From positions 68,007 to 132,006 of the IMG/VR virus record IMGVR_UViG_3300048904_000202: a DNA stretch of 64,000 nt; one strand, given 5' to 3'. Made by a program: the position numbers and the translations under genes. This DNA is from a virus (lineage: Duplodnaviria > Heunggongvirae > Uroviricota > Caudoviricetes). Positions 2,996-62,324 of this stretch are shown piece by piece (positions within the stretch are counted from its first letter, which is position 1; every line of letters begins with the position of its first letter). The notes beneath the pieces were generated by a model. It made no database searches, was not told the DNA's origin, and saw nothing but the letters and a program-made list of their open reading frames with translations.

Positions 2996-3116
2996 CAAGT
3001 TTCATCCTGTTATGGTACATGAGAACGCCTCGGCAGTGATGCCGGGGCGTTTTTCTATTGACAAATCTTAGGGTCGAGTCCAATGGTCCACGAGAGATCA
3101 TCAACAAGGAGGACGA

Positions 3117-6496: not shown

Positions 6497-7050
6497 AGCG
6501 CGATCCTTTCGATCGGACGCGGGTCCATCTGGAAATCCCGTTCGCCCCAGACGGCGCGCGGTCGGTGGATGGGCGCGGTGTCGTTGTTGAAGAGGTACTG
6601 CGTCGTCGGCGGTGTCCGGCTTGGACAGGCGATCAGCTTGACCTCGAAGTCGGTAGAACAGCGGATGACTCTACGACCGAAACGAGCGTTCTCATGTTCC
6701 GCCGAGAAGTCCTCGATCCACCAAAGACCACCACGCCACTCGACTGTCGTCCCGGCGACCCCGCGACGCTCCAGCATCAGTTGATGAAGCGATCGGAACT
6801 TAGTGTCGTCGATGAACACCTGAACCGTTGCGACTCGCTCGATGCGGCGCGCGGTGTGCCGTTCACTGATCTCGAACTCGCCGACCGCCGTAACCAGATC
6901 GGTGAGGGACATGCTCCGTCCGTCCGCGAGCGCCCAATCGCCGACCACAAGCTTCGCGATCTTCATCTCCGCGTCGTAATAGCGGCCGAGCAGCGCCTTC
7001 ATCTCCTCGCGATGGCGGCGGCGCTTGTTGCGTCCGTAGCGGCTGCTCAC
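6493..7050 (-). CDS. hypothetical protein
   Basis: 185-aa ORF, ATGA overlaps both sides. Confidence 0.5.
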   Translation of the reverse strand: MSSRYGRNKRRRHREEMKALLGRYYDAEMKIAKLVVGDWALADGRSMSLTDLVTAVGEFEISERHTARRIERVATVQVFIDDTKFRSLHQLMLERRGVAGTTVEWRGGLWWIEDFSAEHENARFGRRVIRCSTDFEVKLIACPSRTPPTTQYLFNNDTAPIHRPRAVWGERDFQMDPRPIERIAL

Positions 7051-7568
7051 AGAACGTCGCCCGGCCGGCGAAGCCCAGAGAGGTAAGGCCCGCCGGTATA
7101 GTAGCGCGACGCATCGATCGCCTGCTCACGGCGGCGGCGCTTCATCTCAATCTTGTCCATTGCGTTCTGGAACCGGGGCGGGAGCGATACGACGATCGGG
7201 CCATCCTCGCGGCCCCACATGATCGGCGTCTGAATGGAGATGAGCGCGCCGAGCGCCTTGAGTGCTTCGATCAGCTTCACATCCTGATCGGTCAGCATGG
7301 CGTCGGCATCGCGGAGCATCCGGTTGATGTCGTCGATCGACATGGTCTTTTGCGTGCCGTCCGTCTTGGTCACTGTCCCGGCGAACATCGTCTTGTCGCA
7401 ATCGCTGGTCAGTTCGATCTTGTCGCCAAGCTCGAACCCTTCGACGCGACCGATCGGGAACTCGGCGGGGATCGTGCGGTAGGGCTCAGAAAGCCTCTTG
7501 ACGAGATCAAGAAAAGCGTCCGGCTCCGGCACTTGCGACTCGACAAATGGGTCATTTTCGGGTATCAT
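7047..7568 (-). CDS. hypothetical phage-like protein
   Basis: Start revised to ATG (MIPENDPFVE) downstream of promoter motif B; ORF-track start at 7763 would read through the promoter. Confidence 0.5.
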   Translation of the reverse strand: MIPENDPFVESQVPEPDAFLDLVKRLSEPYRTIPAEFPIGRVEGFELGDKIELTSDCDKTMFAGTVTKTDGTQKTMSIDDINRMLRDADAMLTDQDVKLIEALKALGALISIQTPIMWGREDGPIVVSLPPRFQNAMDKIEMKRRRREQAIDASRYYTGGPYLSGLRRPGDVL

Positions 7569-7602
7569 TATGGCTCTACATCGGGGTCTAAGATGATGAT
7601 CC

Positions 7603-7641
7603 CTGCTAGCACCTGCTGAACGAAAGTCAAGCGAAACTAAC
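7603..7641 (-). promoter_or_regulatory. motif-B promoter (GTTAGTTTCGCTTGACT-N16-TAGCAG) for the 7568-5387 operon
   Basis: Reverse complement carries the same GTTAGTTTCGCTTGAC element seen at 30.6, 31.1, 32.6 and 59.7 kb. Confidence 0.4.
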
Positions 7642-7890
7642 CCCGAATGGGGTGCAAATGGGGTGCAAATCCGGCTTTGTTCTGGGTAGCGGCAGGGGTT
7701 TTCAGGAGAGAAACCGAGGGGAGAAGGGCCTTTTAGGCCAAAAACACTGCCTCCCGAAGGCAAGAGCCGTCAAAGTGAATCACTCCAGCGGCTCTCAAAA
7801 TTGGCGGTTTTCTGCGGGTTTCAGGAGAGGTGCTTCTGAGGCCTGTCTTACTGCACCCCAAATGGGGTGCAAATGGGGTGCAACATTTAG
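7641..7890. repeat. att-like region with nested direct repeats (candidate integrase arm-type sites)
   Basis: Two copies of CCCCRAATGGGGTGCAAATGGGGTGCAA (7641-7676, 7855-7890) bracket two copies of GGGTTT(T)CAGGAGAG (7696-7712, 7816-7830); gene-free, abuts integrase 3' end. Confidence 0.5.
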
Positions 7891-9296
7891 GCCGCTTTGA
7901 GGTGCTTCACCGCGTCCTCGGCGGTCTTTTTCGTTTTGGCGCGCCGGGCATTCCGGGCAGCGTTGATCTGTTTGCGGCGCTTCTCGGCCGCAGCTTCGCG
8001 CTCTTCGGCCGTCATGCCCTGTGCCACGTTGAGACGGGTGAAGTGATCCGGCTGTACGTCGAGGCCGGCTCGCTCGACGATTGTCAGCTTGCCTTTCTCG
8101 CCATTCGCGACGGCGAACTTGGCGCACCACGCGTCGGCCGCCGCATTCACTTCGTCCCAGATATCGGTCAGACCTGCCTTCACCGATGCCATCTTCTTGG
8201 GGTTGTAGTGCTTGTAGATCGCGCTGGTTGAGTTCTCGCCGATATGCCCCATGAGGCGGCTGATCTGCGTCTCGTCGCACTCGTTCCATTCCAACATCGA
8301 CGCTACCGTGTGACGGATCGTCTTCGGCACCACGTCCGGTCCGAAGCCGAGAACCTCGCGCATCGTGTTCCAACGGGTGGTCAGGCGCTTGAACCGATTG
8401 CCGTCCTCATCTTTGACCCACGGGCCGGTCCAGCCCTCCATCAGGGCGCTGATGCCGGAGATCGCCGGCACGACGGGGTTGCGCTTCTTCGTGAGCGGGG
8501 CGTCCTTGGGCTGGAGATCGAGCAGATCGAACTCAGGCTTGAACTGATCCTCGACGATGAACTTGAGCGCCGCCTCCGGGCGCATCGCCGTTGCGAGTTG
8601 GAGCAGGATGAAGTGCCAAAGCGGTTCGTCCGAGCGTGCAAACCCGATCATCGCTGAAAGCTCGGCCATGGACAGGACTCGGTCGCGGCGCTTTGGCTTG
8701 ATCTTGCTCGTGAGCTTCTTGCCCGGACCGGGAGCGATAGTGGCGCGCTTCTCTTCAACCGCGTGGTTCAACGCCGCCATGATGATCTGGATATTCTTCT
8801 TGAGCGAGGCGTCGGCCAGCCCTGCGGAAGAGTTGCTGTACTCCTTGCCCTTCCAGACGATCGAGTAGCTGTGCGGCTTCGAGCGCCACCGATGCCAACG
8901 CGCCCATACAGCCGGCGTCAGTTCGGTGAACTTGCAGGCGATACCTGCTTCATCCTGTTTGAGAAACGCGATGAAGGAACGCAGGATCGAGGAGATCGCG
9001 CCAGTTTCCTGTTCGTCGATCGTTTCGCACCCATGCTCATCGTAATAGCGAAGCAGTTCGACGACGACCGATACCTCGGCGTCGTTGTTCTTGGGTGCGT
9101 GCGCGTTGATCCGCGTTAGATGCGCCTCAATGACCTGCTTGGCTTCGGCTACATCCCGGCAACGAGTGCTTCGATACCGATTGCGTCGTTTGTCGGGGTC
9201 GTACCACGCGATCTGCCAGATGTCGGGGGACGCGCCGTCGTCTCGCTTGTCGAGCCAGTAGTCTCCGACGATATGGGGGCTGTCTTCTCGTGCCAC
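7887..9296 (-). CDS. int: tyrosine-type site-specific integrase (P4-like)
   Basis: 469 aa; N-terminal arm-binding-like segment (YWLDKR...WQIAWYD), R..HxxR block (IRHTVASML), catalytic Tyr context YKHYNP; GTG start with GAGGAGA RBS. Confidence 0.9.
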   Translation of the reverse strand: MAREDSPHIVGDYWLDKRDDGASPDIWQIAWYDPDKRRNRYRSTRCRDVAEAKQVIEAHLTRINAHAPKNNDAEVSVVVELLRYYDEHGCETIDEQETGAISSILRSFIAFLKQDEAGIACKFTELTPAVWARWHRWRSKPHSYSIVWKGKEYSNSSAGLADASLKKNIQIIMAALNHAVEEKRATIAPGPGKKLTSKIKPKRRDRVLSMAELSAMIGFARSDEPLWHFILLQLATAMRPEAALKFIVEDQFKPEFDLLDLQPKDAPLTKKRNPVVPAISGISALMEGWTGPWVKDEDGNRFKRLTTRWNTMREVLGFGPDVVPKTIRHTVASMLEWNECDETQISRLMGHIGENSTSAIYKHYNPKKMASVKAGLTDIWDEVNAAADAWCAKFAVANGEKGKLTIVERAGLDVQPDHFTRLNVAQGMTAEEREAAAEKRRKQINAARNARRAKTKKTAEDAVKHLKAA

Positions 9297-9448
9297 TTGC
9301 GTTTCATCTCCTCATTTACAGCCGTCGAGAGGAGTTCCAGTAGCCCAAGCTCGACCAACATCTTGATCTCGGCGTTGCCGATGTTGGTGCCGCCTTCATT
9401 GCGGAGGGCGCGGCGAATCTTCTTCTCGATGTCGGCGTAGGTGTGCAT
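9149..9448 (-). CDS. possible small leaderless ORF upstream of int
   Basis: ATG sits right after TTGACA-N17-TAGTCA promoter; only the first ~50 codons lie outside int, the rest overlaps int in another frame. Confidence 0.25.
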   Translation of the reverse strand: MHTYADIEKKIRRALRNEGGTNIGNAEIKMLVELGLLELLSTAVNEEMKRKWHEKTAPISSETTGSTSETTARPPTSGRSRGTTPTNDAIGIEALVAGM

Positions 9449-9496
9449 ACACTCTGACTAACTCATCAGGGTGCAGGTGTCAACTCTGCCTCAACA

Positions 9497-9808
9497 CTAG
9501 GTCCGAGATAGCGACCGGCGACCACGCCCGGTCGCCTGTGCATAGTCGGGCGTGATGCCGTACTCGGCGAGGACACGCTGGAGCCTGCGGGTGGTAGTCA
9601 GACCAACCGGACCGAGATACCCATCGGCGCTGCCGAGGTTCTGGGACAGCAGAATATCCACCGCGATCACCAGCCGCTTCTCACGGCCAGCGGGAAGGGC
9701 GTCGATCGCCGCTTGGCTCTCCCGCGCGATCCGATCGAGATCGTTGTCGCGCTTCTGGCTCTCAACGCGGATTTCCTCGGCAATGATGTCGCCTTCTTCG
9801 TATTCCAT
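9497..9808 (-). CDS. hypothetical protein
   Basis: 103-aa ORF; TGATG overlap with an upstream 48-aa ORF (about 9809-9955). Confidence 0.45.
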   Translation of the reverse strand: MEYEEGDIIAEEIRVESQKRDNDLDRIARESQAAIDALPAGREKRLVIAVDILLSQNLGSADGYLGPVGLTTTRRLQRVLAEYGITPDYAQATGRGRRSLSRT

Positions 9809-9950
9809 CAGGCGGCGTCCTCCCAGCCTTGGGCGATGCGGCGAAGTTCATCTGCGATCTCCTTGTGGCTCAACACCTCCAGCGCGCTATTGCACGCCAG
9901 ATCGACTTCCTCGCCGAGCTTGATGACGGCCTCTGCGTAGCTCGTGTCCA

Positions 9951-18234: not shown

Positions 18235-18452
18235 AATTTCAAGTGTTCCCCGTTACAGGCCTTGGTCAACCAGAGCGCTCCGATGACCGGTGGGTGTTGA
18301 TGCCATGGTTCTCCACAGACCTCGCACAAACAGTTCTGATCTGTCCGCCTACACTCACAAGCATCGAACCTGATGCGGTCTTCCTCCGACAGCAGATGAT
18401 AGGCATTGCCATTATGGTCATGCTGTTGTCGGAGGTCGAAAGGTATCATCAA
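18231..18452 (-). CDS. Cys-rich small protein
   Basis: 73 aa with CECRRTDQNCLCEVCGEPWHQH cluster; ATGA overlap with nadV. Confidence 0.45.
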   Translation of the reverse strand: MMIPFDLRQQHDHNGNAYHLLSEEDRIRFDACECRRTDQNCLCEVCGEPWHQHPPVIGALWLTKACNGEHLKL

Positions 18453-19945
18453 GCCGGCGTCGCCGGTTGTGACCGCCAGAAGCGGGCGGCCTCGCGGACC
18501 TGCTCGAAGGTAGGCGGGTTCACCAACTCGCCGTTCTCAAAGCTGGTCTGCAACCAATCCCGCTCGCCGGACTGGAGTTCGTCCGGATGGATCGTGACAA
18601 ACGTCTCGTACGGCTCCGGAAAATGGTCAACCGTCCGGCGGACGACCGCGAAACGGCCGGCCTTTGACCGCTTGGACGGATCGGTAGCGACTTCCTTGCG
18701 GATCGCGAAGACGTCGCCGTCGATCGTCACCTCCGATGCCTTCAAGGCGAAGCGATGCGTATCGCGCTCGACCTCGTGCATCATCAAACCGCCACCGGAG
18801 CCGAACACGAGATTGTCGACCGACCACTTACGATAAGCGACGCGCTGGAGAATGCGGCGAAGGGACTCTTCGTTGATCCCGTCGCCTTGAATTAGCCGCA
18901 CGTAAGCCGGCAGTACGCGGTAACCCTTCTCGTTCATCATCCAGCCGGTGTGCTTACCGATCAGATCGAGACAGTGACCGACGTTGTCGACTGGATCGCC
19001 CGAGTCTGGCCGCAAAACCAGCGACATGTTCGAGTCGATCAGCTTCTCCCGTAGACCACAACCGCCCTTGTTCTGCGGCGTCAGCCACATGTTGATCGCG
19101 TTGTCCTGATCGTAGGTATCGATCACAACCGAGACCGGATAGCGACCGCCGAGCGGATTAACCTCTTGGCCGAACTGCTCGATGATGTGTTCGAAGAACG
19201 CCTGCTCGTTGTCCTTGCCCCACGACGTAGTCACCGAGTGTTCCGACGCCGGGATCGAATATCCGAGCATCGCGTCGGTGCGATAAGTGTGCTGGCCGAA
19301 CAGGATACCCATAAGGTTATCGGTCACTTGGAAGTTGACCAGATGAGCCATACCGGAGACCGCTGCGTCCTCAGTGGTGCGGCAACCGCGTGCCGAGAAG
19401 TCGACGACCTTGAACTCGGCCGTACCTTCGGTGCCGGTTTCGGCCAGATACCGCTCGATCAGCCGCCACCAGCGCATGCCACGCGTCGCGATCGTGGTGG
19501 GCATCCAGCAGCGCATGAGGAGCGTTTCGACCGTGATGCACAGGCCGGCGCAGTCCGGATCGAGCGACTCGACCGTCGCTAGGACCGTGCCCTGTGGAAC
19601 GACGACGCCTTCCGGAAGCTGCTTGACGCGCATCGGCAGCTTTCCGCCATGACGTTCCCAGACGATCATAGCCGTATCGGCATCGAACGGCACGCCGTGT
19701 GCCGGCAGGAACTTGGCGGCGTGGTTGATGAATTTCGGCGTCCAAAGCTGGGTCAGGAAGTACCGAAGCGTGTAGGTATTGCCGAACCACATGACTTCAT
19801 TGAACTCACCACCCTTCCGGGCTTCGAGATAGCCGTACTCTGCGGTCAGGCCGGGATGTTGGAACTTCCAGTGGGACGCCTTGTAGGTGTCCTTGTTCAT
19901 GATCGGCTGCGTCAGAAGCTCGCCGATATTATCAATATATTCCAT
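18449..19945 (-). CDS. nadV: nicotinamide phosphoribosyltransferase (NadV/NAMPT)
   Basis: 498 aa; N-terminal NKDTYKASHWKFQ (DSYK-type motif) and NAMPT-like length; AAGGGAG RBS. Confidence 0.85.
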   Translation of the reverse strand: MEYIDNIGELLTQPIMNKDTYKASHWKFQHPGLTAEYGYLEARKGGEFNEVMWFGNTYTLRYFLTQLWTPKFINHAAKFLPAHGVPFDADTAMIVWERHGGKLPMRVKQLPEGVVVPQGTVLATVESLDPDCAGLCITVETLLMRCWMPTTIATRGMRWWRLIERYLAETGTEGTAEFKVVDFSARGCRTTEDAAVSGMAHLVNFQVTDNLMGILFGQHTYRTDAMLGYSIPASEHSVTTSWGKDNEQAFFEHIIEQFGQEVNPLGGRYPVSVVIDTYDQDNAINMWLTPQNKGGCGLREKLIDSNMSLVLRPDSGDPVDNVGHCLDLIGKHTGWMMNEKGYRVLPAYVRLIQGDGINEESLRRILQRVAYRKWSVDNLVFGSGGGLMMHEVERDTHRFALKASEVTIDGDVFAIRKEVATDPSKRSKAGRFAVVRRTVDHFPEPYETFVTIHPDELQSGERDWLQTSFENGELVNPPTFEQVREAARFWRSQPATPA

Positions 19946-19957
19946 GTCGGCTCCCTT

Positions 19958-21047
19958 CTAAATGGTCAGATCGCGGAACGAGTTCAGGTAGAACTCGAAC
20001 GGATTGTAATGATCCTCGAACAGCATCGAGCGGACCACCTCGTCGGTATTCCACCACCGTGCCTGCCGGGCATCGTCGGCGCCCTTCACGATAGGACGCG
20101 GCAGCGATGCCGGGATCAGCAGGCCGAACGCCATCGAGAAGGTGACTTCGCGGTTCGAGCGCCACGGGTTGTCCAGCATCTTCTCGCCGCGTATCCACGA
20201 CGCGAGCGTGTCGCGGGTGATGAAGTCGTTGTGTTCGACGATGCCGGTTTCCTGATCGACCTCGTCGAGCGCCGCGTCGAGGAAGGTCTGGTAGGCGCGC
20301 TTGTGTCCGCCGGGCGATGCCCAGAGACCCTTGCCGGGCATACGATCGCGCTGCACGAGGCAGACGGCGCCGGCATGGAACATCCACATGTCAGCACACG
20401 GGAACTGCTGCGGATCGCCGGTGTAGGGATTGGGCTGGAACTCGGTCAGATAGTTTTTCATGAACTTGTACTCGTCGCGCATGAGCGCGAACTGAGCCGT
20501 GTTCACCCACTGGCGCAGGAACAGATAGGTGCCCTGCGGAATGATCTGGACCTCCGAGCGGTAGATGCACTCGACCGCCGCTGCTGGGTCCCCGGCGTCG
20601 TAGATCGTGTTGCGGATGTCGGTGGCCGAGACCAGAGAATCGGTCGCACCGGTGACAGCCTGCGTCGAGACCGAATCCCAGCCTCGGAATAGCTTGAGGT
20701 AGTAGGACGATCCGTCCTTGGAGAAGCCGACCAGCGCAATGCGGGGCTCGTGATCGAACGACAGGCGCTTGGCCTGCTCGGTCACGACCTTCTGCACGTC
20801 GCGCACCCAGAGCAGGTCGTTGGCGCGGTCCTCGATCCCGAAGATGAATACGCGATCGTTCTCGGCCGGCGTGAGCGACGCTCGGATCATCTGGCTCACC
20901 TCGTCGAAGGTGTGCGGGTTCTTGAAGTGTGGCGCTTCGTTGACCGATCCGATGGTCACGAATGTATATTGTGCCGCGACCAAGCCGGCGCGGATGTTAG
21001 CGATATGAGCGCTGGTGGGTGGCCGCATCCGGCCTGCGAAAACGCAG
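19958..21047 (-). CDS. nadM: bifunctional NMN adenylyltransferase / Nudix hydrolase (NadM-Nudix-like)
   Basis: TTG start after CTAGGGAGACACAAC; N-terminal GRMRPPTSAHIANI resembles the GRFQPFHxGH nucleotidyltransferase motif; C-terminal degenerate Nudix box GGHKRAYQTFLDAALDEVDQETGI. Confidence 0.7.
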
Positions 21048-21069
21048 ATATCGTGCAAGTTGTGTCTCC

Positions 21070-21531
21070 CTAGTTGTTGGCGATGATGTTCACTTCGATG
21101 CCGAAGCTCTCTTCGAACTTTTTGGCGAGTTCGCGGAGCGTCTTTCGGGCATCGTTCTCGTTGCCGCCAGCAGGTCCAAGCTGGATGTAGGAGGCAACCC
21201 ACGAGGTATTCTCGATGCATACACGGAGGATCGCCTTTTCCAGATTGGTCAAGGGCTCCGCCAGCGTCAGCATGTAGACCATTTCACAAAGGCCCGTGGA
21301 TGCCTCCATGATCGCCTCGCGATTCCAGCCTTCCTTTAGGAGGATCGCTAGCGGGTCTGTCGGGTCTTCCGGCTCGCGCTCCGGGAGATCGCTAATTTGT
21401 GCAAGGCCCCACATCATGGCCTCAAGTTCTTTGGTCTGGAGGCGCAGCCTCGCGTGATTCTCGGTCATATGCACTCCTAAGTTGAGTGCGAGTAGCAGCG
21501 CCCAGCCATTTTTGCTAGTGGGAATGAGCAT
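21070..21531 (-). CDS. hypothetical protein
   Basis: 153-aa ORF; stop TAG overlaps the nadM leader; a 56-aa ORF (about 21534-21704) lies upstream. Confidence 0.45.
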   Translation of the reverse strand: MLIPTSKNGWALLLALNLGVHMTENHARLRLQTKELEAMMWGLAQISDLPEREPEDPTDPLAILLKEGWNREAIMEASTGLCEMVYMLTLAEPLTNLEKAILRVCIENTSWVASYIQLGPAGGNENDARKTLRELAKKFEESFGIEVNIIANN

Positions 21532-30568: not shown

Positions 30569-30635
30569 GTTCTCGTCTCCGTGTTGTCAGTTTAACTCGG
30601 CTGAAATAGCCTCAAAGTCAAGCGAAACTAACACT
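30569..30635 (-). promoter_or_regulatory. motif-B promoter (GTTAGTTTCGCTTGACT)
   Basis: rc: GTTAGTTTCGCTTGACTTTGAGGCTATTTCAGCCGAGTTAAACTGACAACACGGAGACGAGAACATG. Confidence 0.4.
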
Positions 30636-31145
30636 TCAACCCAAATAGATGGCGCGCTCGTGTTGGCGCCGATCGACGAGGCCGGCCTTGCCATGATTGG
30701 TCCACCGCAAGAACTCGTCGGCGGCTGCCTTATAGTTGCCGGCGCGGTGGTATTTCAGGAGCGTAGAGGTTTCTTCGGCGTGGAGCCCGCAGTTGAACGC
30801 GAAGCTGACAAGGGCATCGAACTGGTTCTGCGAGGTGGGTGCACCACCTGCGATAAGGTGTTCGACACCATGCTCGAAGAACGCGACATTGGCCGCGAAA
30901 AGCTGCTCGGCGATGGCGAGGGTGATGACCGTCTTCGGGCCGACATCTCGTCCCGTATGCCCCCATCCAATGGTCCAAACTCCTTCGGAGTCCAGATACG
31001 CCGTGAGGGCCGGCTGACCGTGCGGAAGAAGGACGGTATGGCCGTTGACCATCTTGCCGCCGGTCTCGAAACCCTTGAGGTAGAGGGTCATCGTTTGGGT
31101 GATATGCATGGCAGTTATGATTAACCATGACCGCCAGAAAGTCAA
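30636..31145 (-). CDS. phage lysozyme (glycoside hydrolase family 24 endolysin)
   Basis: GH24 signature ...FETGGK...TIGWGHTG...; true start probably ATG near 31107 downstream of motif-B promoter TTGACT-N16-TAATCA (31146-31165). Confidence 0.8.
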   Translation of the reverse strand: MTFWRSWLIITAMHITQTMTLYLKGFETGGKMVNGHTVLLPHGQPALTAYLDSEGVWTIGWGHTGRDVGPKTVITLAIAEQLFAANVAFFEHGVEHLIAGGAPTSQNQFDALVSFAFNCGLHAEETSTLLKYHRAGNYKAAADEFLRWTNHGKAGLVDRRQHERAIYLG

Positions 31146-31151
31146 GCGAAA

Positions 31152-31424
31152 CTAACTCTTTGGGAAGCTAGGTGGCTTCGGCAAGGTAGGCTCCGGCTTA
31201 TCCGGGTCAGGCGTCAGGCGACACTTGCCAGAGCAGTGCGGGACCGGCTGTTCCTTACTCGACTGCAACATGCATTTCCCCGGCGGACAAATCGCACTGA
31301 GTGGCGGTTCACGCCTCTCCATCTTGCCGAACGTCCGAACCGGAGTCGGGGAATTGATGCGGATGGAAAGCGTGGGCTTGCTGGGAAGACCGCCTTTTGG
31401 ATTGTAACTGGCACCGTAGGTCAT
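31152..31424 (-). CDS. proline-rich small protein
   Basis: 90 aa with GGAGAG RBS; Cys/Pro-rich; no signal peptide. Confidence 0.4.
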   Translation of the reverse strand: MTYGASYNPKGGLPSKPTLSIRINSPTPVRTFGKMERREPPLSAICPPGKCMLQSSKEQPVPHCSGKCRLTPDPDKPEPTLPKPPSFPKS

Positions 31425-53620: not shown

Positions 53621-53955
53621 GCGAGCCTCCGCAGGTGCGCGACGACCGCCGGGTTTCCATTCGGCCACACGTTATTAGTCGGAATCAAATCGCGATCGTT
53701 GACGCGCCAGATATCCATGGATTGCTCTTTATCGAGCCCCACCGCGCGGTTGATGGTGTCGTAGCTTCTCGTACCGGGCGGTGAATCCACATTGGCTTCC
53801 AGAGCAATTCTCCCGAGGGCGCAAAAGCATTCCGCCAATGGTGATGTAGGTGAACACCGCTGACCAAGGACATCGATCGCCAGCGATCCGGCGATGTGCT
53901 TGTCCGGATTGGCTTCCAGCCAGTCGGCGGCGCGGAGGATAGCTTCCTTGTTCAT
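53614..53955 (-). CDS. paralog family member P4
   Basis: 113 aa; ORF-track start (54129) extends into the upstream gene, so start revised to MNKEAILRAADW. Confidence 0.55.
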   Translation of the reverse strand: MNKEAILRAADWLEANPDKHIAGSLAIDVLGQRCSPTSPLAECFCALGRIALEANVDSPPGTRSYDTINRAVGLDKEQSMDIWRVNDRDLIPTNNVWPNGNPAVVAHLRRLAA

Positions 53956-54704
53956 ACGAAATACGGTGTCCTGTCCTTGAACCCGTTGAGTGCCTTGGTC
54001 TCGCGAATGTATTCGTAGAGCTTGGCAAGTAGGTCCGGGTCGTGTTGGCGAGGATCGATGCGCGCGGTGAGGATCGCGTCGATCGCTTCGATGTTCTGGG
54101 CGGCGAGTTCGTCCCTGCCGCAAAAGCAATCGGGGATGCGGGCATATTCCTCTGCGACCGCCGGCACCTCAAAGAGGCGGCAGAGTTCTAGAATTTCGGT
54201 CTTCGAGAAGACATTGATCGGCTGGACCGACACGCTCTTGGCGAGTGCGGTATAGGTTCCCAACGCCTTCTCGGTGTTGTTCATTGTCCCTACGACCCAG
54301 AAGTTCTCACCGGGGTCGCGCACCGTGACCTTGACGCTACCGAACTCATCGACCGCGACGTGGTTTAGCGCCCGCAGGTGCAAGTCAGCCCAGCGCTGTG
54401 GGTCGAAGTTCCCGCCGAGTGGCGACAGACATTCTACCTTGGCGGACGGGCAATGCCGCGCCAGCCACCACAGAATGTTGGCCTCGAACCAAGTGGGCTT
54501 ACGCCGTTGGTGATCCGCATAGTGGATGCCCCAGACGCGATCGGCGATTCCCATAATCTCCGCCGCCTCATAGACGAGAGTGAAGGCGATGATGCTGTCG
54601 GTGCCGGACAGGCCCATGAGGAGGCCGGGGACCGGGGTCTGCGACATTCGCATTTTCGCGACGAGACGATCCCGCGCGCGGAGGAATTTGTCAGCGACGC
54701 TCAT
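53952..54704 (-). CDS. NadE-like PP-loop ATP pyrophosphatase (NH3-dependent NAD+ synthetase-like)
   Basis: LLMGLSGTDSIIAF matches NadE LVLGISGGQDS; later VVGTMNNTEKALGTYT matches NadE VVGTDHAAEAITGFFT; start revised to MSVADKF (ATGA overlap with P3). Confidence 0.55.
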   Translation of the reverse strand: MSVADKFLRARDRLVAKMRMSQTPVPGLLMGLSGTDSIIAFTLVYEAAEIMGIADRVWGIHYADHQRRKPTWFEANILWWLARHCPSAKVECLSPLGGNFDPQRWADLHLRALNHVAVDEFGSVKVTVRDPGENFWVVGTMNNTEKALGTYTALAKSVSVQPINVFSKTEILELCRLFEVPAVAEEYARIPDCFCGRDELAAQNIEAIDAILTARIDPRQHDPDLLAKLYEYIRETKALNGFKDRTPYFV

Positions 54705-55078
54705 GCCGCGAGCTTCCGCAGGTACGGGATCACATCCGGATTGCCGCGCCATAGCGGCTTCTCGGCGGTCTCCATGGTGTCCACGTCATAACGTTCATTG
54801 ATCGCATCATTGAGCTTGACGATCGCGGCGAACTGCGTGCCGTCGAGGCCGGAGATGTGGTAGAACCACCGGCGGTTGTCGCGATCGACGCCGTGCATGG
54901 AAGTCGGGGCCTCGCCACACTCCTTGGCAATGCGACCGATGGCGCAGAAGCACTCGGCGTCAGGGTGGTTGGGACCAACATAGTCACCGGCGGCGTTGGC
55001 CGCGTAGAAGGCGGCCATGTGCTTGTCGGGGTTCGCTTCCAGCCAGTCGGCGGCGCGGCGGATAGCTTCCTTGTTCAT
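54701..55078 (-). CDS. paralog family member P3
   Basis: 125 aa; shared N-terminus MNKEAIRRAADWLEANPDKH, CFCAIGRI, C-terminus YLRKLAA. Confidence 0.55.
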   Translation of the reverse strand: MNKEAIRRAADWLEANPDKHMAAFYAANAAGDYVGPNHPDAECFCAIGRIAKECGEAPTSMHGVDRDNRRWFYHISGLDGTQFAAIVKLNDAINERYDVDTMETAEKPLWRGNPDVIPYLRKLAA

Positions 55079-60819: not shown

Positions 60820-61259
60820 TGTTTAGCTTTCCGGTCACAGTACCGTTCCGCGATCCGGAAGGTGTGTTTCCCGTGGACCTATCGATTTGCGTCGACAATG
60901 TCCTCAAGGTTACCCCTCTTGACAAAGATCATAGTTTTGGTGTAGAGTCTGACACACTCTACTCCTGCCTGCCGTCCTGCGAGATACTTTTCGAGGACGG
61001 CCGCAAACTCCCGGTCATGGAAACGGCGGCGACGATCAATCGCTACCTCGACCTGTACCGGCAGATCGAGAGCTTCTACACAGCGCCGGCCACGCCCGCT
61101 CGAAGTTCAGCACAAGGCATCCGCTCCCAGCATTTGCGAACCGAACGGCCTGACGCCGTGCGGGTCCACCCGCTGACCGGAGCGACGGAGGGAGTAGTCG
61201 TCCCTCTCTTTGGCCGAACCTCCCCATGCGCTTCATCGGAGGCATCGACCCCGGACTAA
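60819..61259 (+). CDS. hypothetical protein
   Basis: Start revised to MFSFPVTVPF (TGATG overlap). Confidence 0.4.
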   Translation: MFSFPVTVPFRDPEGVFPVDLSICVDNVLKVTPLDKDHSFGVESDTLYSCLPSCEILFEDGRKLPVMETAATINRYLDLYRQIESFYTAPATPARSSAQGIRSQHLRTERPDAVRVHPLTGATEGVVVPLFGRTSPCASSEASTPD

Positions 61260-61795
61260 CCGGGGCGCTCGCCGTCCTCGATTTCGACCTAGCCTGCCTG
61301 CACCTCTGGGACACCCCGACTGTCTCGGTGCAGGTAGGCGACAAGGTACGCAAACGCGTTGACCCTATCGCCTGTGCCGAGGCGGTAGGGCGTTTCCCAT
61401 TGGACTCCTCGCTGATCGAGAATGTCCACTCAACACCGAACGACGGTCACGCCGGTGCCTTCACCTTTGGCAAGGCGACCGGGATCATGATCGGTGTCTT
61501 TGCCGGGCTCGACTTCCCGCTCGGCAGCGTCGCTCCCGCAAAGTGGAAAATGGCGATGCAGGTTCCGGCCGACAAAGGCGATGCCATGCGTCGAGCCTCA
61601 GAAATGTTCCCGCGCTGTACCAAGGCTTGGGCACGCAAAATGGACAACGGTCGCGCCGAGGCGGCCATCATCGCGCTCTTCCACGCGATCTCGCTGGGTC
61701 TCCAACCCACCCGCCCGTTCGACCTCGGTCTCGTGAACGGGAAACCCTTCATCTCCTCCCCACCGAAAGCGCCCCGTCGTGCCCGAACTCACTAA
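61226..61795 (+). CDS. RuvC-like Holliday junction resolvase (phage-type)
   Basis: MRFIGGIDPGLTGALAVL matches RuvC motif I (GIDPG..G.A); 189 aa; sits just before the terminase genes. Confidence 0.75.
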   Translation: MRFIGGIDPGLTGALAVLDFDLACLHLWDTPTVSVQVGDKVRKRVDPIACAEAVGRFPLDSSLIENVHSTPNDGHAGAFTFGKATGIMIGVFAGLDFPLGSVAPAKWKMAMQVPADKGDAMRRASEMFPRCTKAWARKMDNGRAEAAIIALFHAISLGLQPTRPFDLGLVNGKPFISSPPKAPRRARTH

Positions 61796-62324
61796 CCGTC
61801 GTCAGGAACTGTTTGCCCGTCATCTCGGCGAAGGCGACCACACCATGACGCAGGCGCTGGCCTACGAACTGGCCGGTTACACACCGTCAGCCTCGAACGC
61901 GAGCGTCTTGGCCAACAAGCCGGAGATCGCGGAGCGCATCAAGGAAATCCGCGCCGAGAAGGAACGTCGTGAACTGGAGTTCCGCGTCCGCCTCCACGAA
62001 GCCGGTCTCGACGAGAAAGACCCCGAGACAGCCAAGCGCGTCGTGATCGAATGGAACGACAATGTCGTTCGCGACATGCTGTCCGAGAACGCCCGGCTCG
62101 CACAGGTTGCGGGACAGTTTCAGGCAGCCAAGGAGTCGATCAAGCTGATCGGCGACAGCCTCGGTACCTTCGATAAGGCGACCGCCGCCGACAACAAGAA
62201 ACTCCCGGCGCCGGCCGGCAGCCCGCTTCAAGTCAGTTTCAATCTCAACGGCGCGCTCGAAGGCGCTGCCGCGTCCGTCGAAGAACCGGCCGACGACAAT
62301 CCGCTGGCTCCCCGAAAGAAGTAA
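61779..62324 (+). CDS. terminase small subunit
   Basis: N-terminal LTNRRQELFARHLGEGDHTMTQALAYELAGYTPSASNASVLANKPEI fits the TerS HTH-type N-domain; GTG start overlapping ruvC-like stop. Confidence 0.7.
   Translation: MPELTNRRQELFARHLGEGDHTMTQALAYELAGYTPSASNASVLANKPEIAERIKEIRAEKERRELEFRVRLHEAGLDEKDPETAKRVVIEWNDNVVRDMLSENARLAQVAGQFQAAKESIKLIGDSLGTFDKATAADNKKLPAPAGSPLQVSFNLNGALEGAAASVEEPADDNPLAPRKK

What the first reader, a model, noticed from the sequence alone, without database searches (positions are those of the whole stretch)
7603..7890. att-like repeat architecture next to the integrase, and phage-type promoter on the far side
The gene-free 250 bp at the integrase 3' end holds a nested direct-repeat set: R1 (GGGGTGCAAATGGGGTGCAA, itself a tandem 11-mer) at 7645-7672 and 7859-7886, and R2 (GGGTTTTCAGGAGAG) at 7696-7712 and 7816-7830. 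An A/T-tract element GGCCTTTTAGGCCAAAAA lies at the centre. This resembles arm-type integrase binding sites flanking a core. However, the minus-strand operon on the far side (7568-5387) is driven by the same motif-B promoter used inside the prophage (7603-7641), and no tRNA is present. Either the integrase is internal to the phage-derived region, or two phage-like elements abut here.
Basis: seen in the sequence. Interest (0 to 1): 0.6.

Follow-up and report, generated by a model that had tools for sequence, protein, structure and literature searches.

The report
Phage attachment site splitting tRNA-Pro
The repeat-rich gap next to the integrase is the attachment site (attP) of a large Sphingomonas phage; it recombines with the anticodon stem-loop of the host tRNA-Pro(CGG) gene, but unlike its relatives it carries too little of the tRNA to rebuild the gene after integration.

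Summary
The repeats are real. The 11-mer ATGGGGTGCAA occurs only four times in 64 kb, as two tandem pairs at 7647-7668 and 7862-7883.

The region is an attP. A second metagenome contig (L001) is 100% identical to the window from 9842 down to 7747. It then continues into the 3' half of a tRNA-Pro(CGG) gene and 87 kb of Sphingomonas chromosome.

The 16 bp ending at that breakpoint (7747-7762) equal the anticodon stem-loop of the sphingomonad tRNA-Pro(CGG). They lie at the centre of the R1 pair.

Two relatives show the same layout with different 11-mer words: Sphingobium phage Lacusarx and a metagenomic phage (L138). In each, a tandem 11-mer follows the int stop codon and a tRNA fragment starts at the anticodon loop. 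Where the far arm is visible (Lacusarx), a second tandem 11-mer follows, then a GTTAGTTT..TTGAC promoter.

The integrase model has an N-terminal fold like the lambda Int arm-binding domain.

The whole window is phage DNA, so it shows the unintegrated form.

This attP lacks the tRNA 3' half, so an in-silico attL contains no tRNA. That fits 'tRNA-dependent lysogeny' (actinophages, 2024). The compensating phage tRNA and the attL junction could not be examined.

Verdict: a new member of a known kind, of moderate interest.

The parts
7887..9296 (-). int: tyrosine integrase, 469 aa, lambda-type three-domain layout
7851..7883 (.). P-arm R1 sites: two tandem 11-mers (7862-7872, 7873-7883) plus one inverted imperfect copy (7851-7861); putative arm-type Int sites
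   Evidence: They start 3 bp after the int stop codon. A tandem 11-mer of a different word sits in the same place in L138 (TGCGGTACCAT x2) and Lacusarx (ACCTGCTGGAC, ACCTGCTGGCC).
7816..7829 (.). R2, P-arm copy (int-sense CTCTCCTGAAACCC)
   Evidence: Weak alone. A second nested repeat pair also exists in Lacusarx and L138.
7763..7795 (-). Imperfect 16-bp inverted repeat directly abutting the core on the P side; forms the main hairpin of the int 3' UTR
   Evidence: I2. RNA fold -31.3 kcal/mol, z -2.4.
7747..7762 (-). Common core: int-sense TGCC-TTCGGGA-GGCAG, equal to the anticodon stem-loop of tRNA-Pro(CGG). The probable 7-bp overlap is the anticodon loop, 7752-7758. The prophage/host breakpoint is 7746|7747.
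   Evidence: L001 is identical to the window down to 7747 and then continues as the tRNA 3' half. The core matches the typical sphingomonad tRNA-Pro(CGG) 16/16. Eleven other genomes have foreign DNA joined at this same loop.
7727..7746 (-). P'-proximal segment: T-run (int-sense GTGTTTTT) plus a GGCC-TAAAA-GGCC hairpin. It occupies the place where relatives carry the tRNA T-arm and acceptor. With the core hairpin it forms a terminator-like end for int.
   Evidence: Terminator-like site 7763->7747 plus TGTTTTT. Alignment with L138 and Lacusarx. RNA fold.
7697..7710 (.). R2, P'-arm copy (int-sense CTCTCCTGAAAACC)
7640..7668 (.). P'-arm R1 sites: two tandem 11-mers (7647-7657, 7658-7668); putative arm-type Int sites
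   Evidence: The Lacusarx equivalent (ATTTGCTGGCC, ATTTGCTGGAC) lies in the same position, directly upstream of the GTTAGTTT..TTGAC promoter.
7603..7641 (-). Phage 'motif-B' promoter: GTTAGTTTCGC-TTGACT (-35 at 7630-7625), 16-17 nt spacer, GCTAGCAG. It drives the operon that starts at 7568.
   Evidence: Homologous GTTAGTTTGGATTGACA in Lacusarx.
7047..7568 (-). First gene of the P'-side operon (173 aa, no known family)
   Evidence: Called as a gene on six contigs; the one shown (L005) has the int-attP-gene order.

Best explanation
Window 7569-7886 is the attP of a Lacusarx-like Sphingomonas phage, assembled here in its unintegrated form. Int (7887-9296) is a lambda-type heterobivalent tyrosine integrase.

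Inferred mechanism: the core-binding and catalytic domains of Int act on the 16-bp core at 7747-7762. This core copies the anticodon stem-loop of the host tRNA-Pro(CGG) gene. The stem halves would serve as the inverted core-type sites and the 7-nt loop as the overlap where strands are exchanged. The N-terminal domain would bind the tandem 11-mers ATGGGGTGCAA, centred about 117 bp (P arm) and 97 bp (P' arm) from the loop. That would fold the arms into an intasome. R2 and the 7763-7795 inverted repeat are candidate sites for accessory or bending proteins.

Shown: one prophage/host junction exactly at the end of the core; the conserved architecture in relatives; and the arm-binding-type fold.

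Inferred: which protein binds R1 and R2, and the exact cleavage positions.

A further inference follows from the fact that attP shares only 16 bp with the tRNA and carries no T-arm or acceptor. Integration should leave a truncated tRNA-Pro(CGG) at attL. The lysogen would then rely on other tRNA-Pro species or on a phage-borne tRNA-Pro.
For: Junction: L001 (JGI contig Ga0496121_0000375, 91.8 kb) positions 1-2096 are 100% identical to window 9842..7747. It then reads GGGCCGGAGGTTCGAATCCTCTTTCCCCGACCA, followed by about 105 nt, MacB/FtsX genes and about 87 kb of further host DNA.

[quoted passage not shown] In many Sphingomonas genomes the gene sits directly after the same FNR gene.

The core matches the tRNA anticodon arm 16/16.

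The attP form is found identically in an independent assembly, L005.

The R1 11-mer occurs only at this locus.

The architecture is conserved with different words in Lacusarx (tRNA-Arg(CCG) 3' half) and L138 (tRNA-Pro(CGG) 3' half). The distance from the P-arm repeat to the loop is 117.5 bp in the window, 117.5 bp in L138 and 107.5 bp in Lacusarx.

The Int N-domain model matches the lambda Int DBD-P'2 DNA complex and the HPI arm-binding domain; these rank 2 and 5 of 48,164 chains.

The catalytic residues are invariant.

The other motif-B promoters carry no R1, so R1 is not a promoter element.

ARAGORN finds no tRNA in the in-silico attL but does find one in the attB control.
Against: Only one of the two junctions was found; attL was never observed.

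The nine closest uninfected relatives of the host (93-94% DNA identity) carry a different tRNA-Pro(cgg) allele at this locus. The actual attB of the lysogen's lineage is therefore inferred from other Sphingomonas genomes.

No Xis/RDF gene and no IHF consensus site were identified.

R2 is not significant on its own.

Lacusarx gave no lysogens in a laboratory test (PMC5648845).

Binding of Int to R1 is not demonstrated.
Confidence: 0.85

Rival explanations
1. R1 and R2 are operators for a phage transcription regulator that controls the motif-B promoter at 7603-7641 and int termination. Only the 16-bp core serves integration.
For: R1a ends one base from the GTTAGTTT..TTGAC promoter, in both the window and Lacusarx. 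Repeated sites 215 bp apart could support looping. No binding data exist.
Against: The other exact motif-B promoters (30617-30632, 31141-31156) have no R1, and the 11-mer occurs nowhere else in the 64 kb. R1b is not next to a promoter; it lies directly after the int stop codon. The 11-mer word changes together with the Int lineage. Int has an arm-binding-type N-domain that needs such sites. The two roles are not mutually exclusive.
Confidence: 0.08
2. The site is a self-recombination (multimer-resolution, Xer/Cre-like) site for a recombinase of a non-integrating phage, as the Lacusarx annotation 'XerC/XerS' implies.
For: Lacusarx annotates the homologue as XerS/XerC and found no lysogens.
Against: A host junction exists at the core. 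Homologues lie in chromosomes next to tRNA fragments (L137; one search lists chromosomal homologues). The core is a tRNA fragment in all three phages. Xer and Cre sites are simple about-30-bp sites without arm repeats, and their enzymes lack an arm-binding domain (established knowledge).
Confidence: 0.04
3. The junction contig L001 is an assembly chimera, and the repeats are iterons of a replication origin or another structural element.
For: 11-bp phased direct repeats flanking an A/T tract resemble iteron origins. Only one junction contig was seen, and it ends 546 bp upstream of int.
Against: The shared sequence between phage and tRNA is only 16 bp, shorter than assembler k-mers (inference). 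The join falls exactly at the end of that identity and continues in register as a tRNA. Relatives carry tRNA fragments at the same place.
Confidence: 0.03

Closest known systems
Phage lambda-type attP/Int (heterobivalent tyrosine integrases; lambda, HP1, L5, P2)
   Same: int lies adjacent to attP. A short core is shared with attB. Repeated arm-type sites unrelated to the core lie on both arms, tandem at about one helical turn as for lambda P'1-P'3 (established knowledge). The N-terminal three-strand-plus-helix domain resembles lambda Int 1-64.
   Different: The core lies in a tRNA anticodon stem-loop. The arm sites in the two arms are in direct orientation. No IHF consensus or Xis was recognised. 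Int sequence similarity to solved integrases is confined to the catalytic domain.
tRNA-dependent lysogeny (Guerrero-Bustamante & Hatfull, mBio 2024, PMC10865867): mycobacteriophage Fionnbharth versus Boilgate
   Same: A tyrosine Int with arm-type sites. attB overlaps a tRNA gene. The common core is short (10 bp there, 16 bp here), so no tRNA is rebuilt. A close relative has a long core that does rebuild it (Boilgate there; L138 and Lacusarx here).
   Different: The host is a proteobacterium and the phage is at least 164 kb. The compensating phage tRNA of the same isotype was not seen: there is no tRNA in the 64-kb window, and only the relative Lacusarx is known to encode tRNA-Pro(cgg). Essentiality of the host tRNA is unknown.
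Sphingobium phage Lacusarx (KY629563), int LAV_00128 and the gene-free stretch 86607-86989
   Same: Int is 52% identical. The gene order is the same (+ strand tRNA/rtcB/sigA module, then minus-strand genes, attP, int, NAD-salvage genes). The layout is the same: tandem 11-mer, tRNA fragment, tandem 11-mer, GTTAGTTT..TTGAC promoter.
   Different: Lacusarx carries the full 3' half of tRNA-Arg(CCG) (anticodon loop to CCA), uses different 11-mers, and was reported as virulent. Its attP is not annotated or described.
Integration into the anticodon-loop sublocation of tRNA genes, including rhizobiophage 16-3 and other elements at tRNA-Pro(CGG) (from memory: Williams 2002; Semsey et al. 2002; not checked here)
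   Same: The same target gene class. Eleven of 120 genomic tRNA-Pro(CGG) loci show foreign DNA joined at the anticodon loop.
   Different: Those elements normally carry the tRNA 3' part and regenerate the gene (for example the intact copy plus displaced half in Sphingobium naphthae, L029/L077). This attP does not.

Membership tests
lambda-type heterobivalent tyrosine integrase / attP | Tyrosine-recombinase catalytic domain with conserved R..K..(H)xxR..H/W..Y | tested here: met
   R239, K271, R328, H351 and Y361 are invariant in 47 homologues. PHROG_1 integrase, E 2.2e-25. Foldseek matches the Tn1549, XerA and Brujita integrases. K325 stands where the first His of HxxR is usual.
lambda-type heterobivalent tyrosine integrase / attP | [quoted passage not shown] | tested here: met
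lambda-type heterobivalent tyrosine integrase / attP | Core shared with attB, with the prophage/host junction inside or at the edge of it | tested here: met
   The L001 breakpoint is at 7746/7747, at the end of a 16/16 match to tRNA-Pro(CGG). Only the int-proximal junction was seen.
lambda-type heterobivalent tyrosine integrase / attP | Repeated arm-type sites on both arms, different from the core sequence | tested here: met
   There are 2 + 2 tandem 11-mers plus one inverted copy, unique to the locus. The pattern is conserved with other words in Lacusarx; in L138 only the P-arm pair is visible. Protein binding was not tested.
lambda-type heterobivalent tyrosine integrase / attP | Accessory factors (IHF-type bends, Xis/RDF) with sites in the arms | tested here: inconclusive
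   No WATCAANNNNTTR site within one mismatch. No Pfam or PHROG family for the neighbouring small genes. R2 and the 7763-7795 inverted repeat are candidates only.
canonical tRNA-gene integration (target regenerated by the element) | attP carries the tRNA segment from the crossover to the 3' end, so that attL holds an intact tRNA | tested here: not met
   The window P' arm has no T-arm or acceptor. ARAGORN finds no tRNA in the in-silico attL but finds tRNA-Pro(cgg) in the attB control. The relatives L138 and Lacusarx do carry it.
tRNA-dependent lysogeny (PMC10865867) | attB overlaps a host tRNA gene and the common core is too short to rebuild it | tested here: met
   The core is 16 bp. The in-silico attL has no tRNA. 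A real attL was not recovered.
tRNA-dependent lysogeny (PMC10865867) | [quoted passage not shown] | not testable with these tools
   There is no tRNA in the 64-kb window. By synteny with Lacusarx, the tRNA array should lie upstream of rtcB, outside the window. Lacusarx encodes tRNA-Pro(cgg) LAV_00082. The rest of the 164-kb contig could not be fetched.
tRNA-dependent lysogeny (PMC10865867) | The disrupted host tRNA is needed (single copy), so that the phage tRNA is required for viable lysogens | not tested
   Only one genome contig appears twice among the 80 of 120 matching stretches whose contig names one search printed, and its second hit is a displaced half. This hints at a single copy. The lysogen's genome was not available.

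The most novel reading that the evidence does not exclude
A Lacusarx-type Sphingomonas phage of at least 164 kb, a group so far described as virulent, lysogenises by splitting the host's tRNA-Pro(CGG) gene without rebuilding it. A tRNA-Pro(CGG) from its own tRNA array then keeps the lysogen alive. This would be tRNA-dependent lysogeny outside the Actinobacteria. It would give a lysogeny-related role to the large tRNA arrays of big alphaproteobacterial phages. The replaced tRNA-Pro allele in uninfected sister strains would then be a host escape from this attB.
Probability: 0.3. Interest if true: 0.65.

Novelty: new member of a known kind. Interest (0 to 1): 0.45.

Why it matters
It turns a guess into a mapped attP, with core, breakpoint and arm sites, for a phage group whose only isolate (Lacusarx) was called virulent and whose recombinase was annotated as Xer-like. 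It shows that this group integrates, or recently did, into tRNA anticodon loops. It reveals an unannotated attP in Lacusarx. It also supplies a natural pair, a relative that rebuilds the tRNA and a phage that cannot. That pair makes the proposal that tRNA-dependent lysogeny exists outside actinophages directly testable, and the test needs only the rest of the contig. The Int/attP pair is also a candidate integration tool for sphingomonads.

Tried and rejected
- Exact scans for the 22-nt R1 word: none in viral contigs. Three metagenome hits (L002-L004) are unrelated loci that happen to carry the same tandem word.
- Int protein in viral contigs: no relative.
- Hunt for attL: look-ups of the first P'-side gene returned only attP-form contigs. 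Look-ups of the host FNR and MacB neighbours returned nine uninfected contigs, all with a different tRNA-Pro(cgg) allele.
- Look-up of RtcB, to reach the presumed tRNA array left of the window, failed; the product is not on record.
- tblastn of Int against 120 genomic tRNA-Pro(CGG) loci: only distant integrases. The other elements at this hotspot therefore use other integrases, or their int lies at the far end.
- IHF consensus: none.
- Whether the sister strains' alternative tRNA allele is phage-derived: it is no closer to the Lacusarx tRNA-Pro than the typical allele is.
- Rejected: iteron origin, Xer-type resolution site, and pure promoter element (see the rival explanations).

Full report
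**1. Observation**

The gene-free stretch 7569-7886 lies between the stop codon of a minus-strand tyrosine integrase gene (7887-9296) and the start of the next minus-strand operon (7568 downwards).

- R1: the repeat finder reports a 29-nt direct repeat at 7640-7668 and 7855-7883, 28/29 identical. Each copy contains two tandem copies of ATGGGGTGCAA.
- Allowing one mismatch, that 11-mer occurs four times in the whole 64 kb, all here. The chance expectation is 0.77, and 0 of 100 shuffles reach four.
- A fifth, inverted copy with two mismatches abuts the int-proximal pair at 7861->7851.
- R2 (7697-7710 and 7816-7829) exists but is not significant on its own, since 11 of 100 shuffles give two matches.
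- The promoter motif is real. GTTAGTTTCGCTTGAC occurs exactly at 7626-7641, 30617-30632 and 31141-31156, all on the minus strand. Five further matches have two mismatches (one on a + strand gene's antisense), and several sites are followed at 17-18 nt by a TAGNCA-like -10.

**2. What the window is**

- No tRNA gene and no Rfam family is present.
- Almost all genes from about 3.4 to 59 kb are small and on the minus strand.
- Recognisable products are RtcB (31-1221), NAMPT (18449-19945), NMNAT/Nudix (19958-21220), NAD synthetase (53952-54752), a Holliday-junction resolvase and a small terminase subunit (61226-62324).
- The only isolated phage with a similar integrase is Sphingobium phage Lacusarx (130 kb). 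Identity is 65% at the DNA level and 52% at the protein level.
- Gene order around int matches Lacusarx, and the functional content matches its paper.
- The exact Int sequence is on JGI contigs of up to 164,476 bp.
- The window is therefore phage DNA on both sides of the finding.

**3. The decisive evidence: a junction with a host chromosome**

The same Int is also encoded on a 91.8-kb contig, L001.

- L001 positions 1-2096 are 100% identical to window 9842..7747.
- At that point the window continues ...GGGAGGCAG|TGTTTTTGGCCTAAAAGGCCC.
- L001 instead continues ...GGGAGGCAG|GGGCCGGAGGTTCGAATCCTCTTTCCCCGACCA. About 105 nt follow, then three MacB/FtsX permease genes and about 87 kb more of Sphingomonas DNA.
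- The new piece is the 3' half of tRNA-Pro(CGG). The intact gene reads CGGGGAATAGCTCAGCCTGGTAGAGCACTG[C/T]CTTCGGGAGGCAGGGGCCGGAGGTTCGAATCCTCTTTCCCCGACCA.
- Phage and tRNA share exactly TGCC-TTCGGGA-GGCAG, the anticodon stem-loop. This is window 7762..7747 on the minus strand.
- An independent assembly (Logan SRR35925497, L005) carries the attP form, identical over 8.5 kb.
- Eleven of the 120 genomic loci also have foreign DNA joined at the same anticodon loop, so this is a common integration hotspot.

**4. Comparative test of the arm repeats**

- Lacusarx (L136): the 383-nt gene-free stretch after int LAV_00128 reads as follows. A tandem 11-mer (ACCTGCTGGAC, ACCTGCTGGCC) lies 8 nt after the stop codon. 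Then comes the 3' half of tRNA-Arg(CCG) from the anticodon loop to CCA; it is not annotated and ARAGORN finds no gene. Then a second tandem 11-mer (ATTTGCTGGCC, ATTTGCTGGAC), followed immediately by GTTAGTTTGGATTGACA.
- Metagenomic phage L138/L139 (Int 56% identical): it has TGCGGTACCAT x2 after the stop codon, then tRNA-Pro(CGG) from the anticodon loop to CCA. The sequence that follows is homologous to the Lacusarx P' arm, so this contig is an attP form. It ends before the position where a second tandem 11-mer would lie.
- The centre of the P-arm repeat lies 117.5 bp from the centre of the anticodon loop in the window, 117.5 bp in L138 and 107.5 bp in Lacusarx (computed).
- Each relative also has a second nested repeat pair between R1 and the core. 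This gives R2 some support.
- L137 (Int 55% identical) shows another chromosomal junction: int, a 3' half of tRNA-Pro(GGG), then a TonB receptor gene.
- The layout is thus conserved while the 11-mer word changes with the Int lineage. This is what arm-type sites that co-evolve with the Int N-domain would look like.

**5. The integrase**

- R239, K271, R328, H351 and Y361 are invariant in 47 homologues.
- The AF2 model is confident, with pLDDT 91.6.
- The core-binding and catalytic domains match the Tn1549, XerA and Brujita integrases.
- The scores are modest, but the hits are specific.

**6. Mechanism**

- Shown: attP position, the int-proximal junction, the conserved architecture, and an arm-binding-type domain.
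- Inferred: Int bridges the R1 sites and the core. The anticodon-stem halves act as core-type sites and the 7-nt loop as the overlap.
- R2, the 7763-7795 inverted repeat and the GGCC hairpin are candidate accessory sites.
- In the phage, the large hairpin, the core hairpin and the T-run also look like the end of the int transcript.
- R1a ends one base from the promoter of the P' operon, in Lacusarx as well. Int occupancy could therefore affect that promoter. This is speculation.

**7. The unusual point**

- L138 and Lacusarx carry the whole tRNA 3' half. The window phage has unrelated sequence of the same length in its place.
- An in-silico attL (tRNA 5' half + core + P') contains no tRNA by ARAGORN, whereas the attB control does.
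- This is the first defining feature of 'tRNA-dependent lysogeny', described for mycobacteriophages in 2024. There a 10-bp core fails to rebuild tRNA-Lys and a phage tRNA complements the loss. The authors suggest the phenomenon may exist outside actinophages (PMC10865867).
- The second defining feature could not be tested. The window has no tRNA. By synteny the tRNA array should lie upstream of rtcB, outside the window, and that DNA could not be retrieved.
- Lacusarx does encode tRNA-Pro(cgg) as the first gene of its 24-tRNA array.

**8. Caveats**

- attL was not found.
- The nine closest uninfected relatives of the L001 host (93-94% DNA identity in the MacB region) carry a different tRNA-Pro(cgg) allele and a different flank at the FNR-tRNA-MacB locus. 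Its anticodon arm matches the phage core at only 10/16 positions.
- The typical allele nevertheless lies directly after the FNR gene in many Sphingomonas genomes. It is therefore the likely ancestral state, retained by the lysogen's lineage.
- Lacusarx produced no lysogens in a laboratory test.

**9. Verdict**

The object is a lambda-type attP of a large Lacusarx-like Sphingomonas phage that targets the anticodon loop of tRNA-Pro(CGG). It is a new member of a known kind. It has one noteworthy variation, a short core that does not rebuild the tRNA, and this makes tRNA-dependent lysogeny in a proteobacterial phage testable.

Noticed in passing
L127-L135 (e.g. L128 6664-6740; L130 4386-4462): Nine uninfected Sphingomonas contigs share the FNR-tRNA-MacB locus with the lysogen contig. 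They carry a different tRNA-Pro(cgg) allele (CGGGGCGTGGCGCAGTCTGGTAGCGCACTGGTCTCGGGGTCCAGG...) and a different flank of about 105 nt. Its anticodon arm matches the phage core at only 10/16 positions. This is an attB polymorphism that could block integration.
   Followed up: partly
L136 2392-2774 (= KY629563 86607-86989): Lacusarx, published as virulent, has an unannotated attP-like region downstream of its 'XerS/XerC' recombinase. It holds the 3' half of tRNA-Arg(CCG) flanked by two tandem 11-mer pairs.
   Followed up: yes
L008, L012, L027, L034, L067, L077, L099, L105, L109, L110, L122: Eleven of 120 genomic tRNA-Pro(CGG) hits are displaced 3' halves, with foreign DNA joined at the anticodon loop. 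This makes the loop a widely used integration hotspot in Alpha- and Gammaproteobacteria. None has a close homologue of this Int nearby.
   Followed up: partly
window 7887-8090 (Int residues about 400-469): Int and its three closest homologues (P0002-P0004) have an extra C-terminal tail of about 60 aa, rich in K and R. It is modelled as one long helix (residues 430-468). The chromosomal homologues of about 405 aa lack it.
   Followed up: no
L137 1103-1179 and about 3040-3092: A 55%-identical int lies between an intact tRNA-Pro(ggg) on the opposite strand and a 3' half of tRNA-Pro(GGG), next to a TonB-dependent receptor gene. It looks like a remnant or rearranged element consisting of little more than int.
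   Followed up: no
window 18449-21220 and 53952-54752: The phage carries an NAD salvage and synthesis set: NAMPT, an NMNAT/Nudix fusion and an NAD synthetase. Lacusarx has a similar set. The host locus next to attB encodes an NMN transporter (L128 9207-9857).
   Followed up: no
window 9149-9448 (minus): A 99-aa ORF with gene-like GC3 overlaps the first 148 nt of the int ORF in another frame. A TTGACA-N17-TAGTCA promoter-like site lies just upstream (about 9485-9455). It is not called as a gene in L001 or L005. The true int start was not resolved.
   Followed up: no
L002 293-333; L003 65-95: Unrelated metagenome contigs carry the same word in tandem. L002 has TTGCACCCCAT x3 upstream of an ABC sugar permease gene. 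L003 has GTGCAAATGGG x2-3 near an XRE/ImmA-type gene pair at a contig end. This may be chance, or arm sites of other elements.
   Followed up: no
L001 position 1 (= window 9842): The lysogen contig stops 546 bp upstream of int. This is probably an assembly break where the prophage and free-phage read paths merge. The prophage interior and the attL side are therefore unseen.
   Followed up: no
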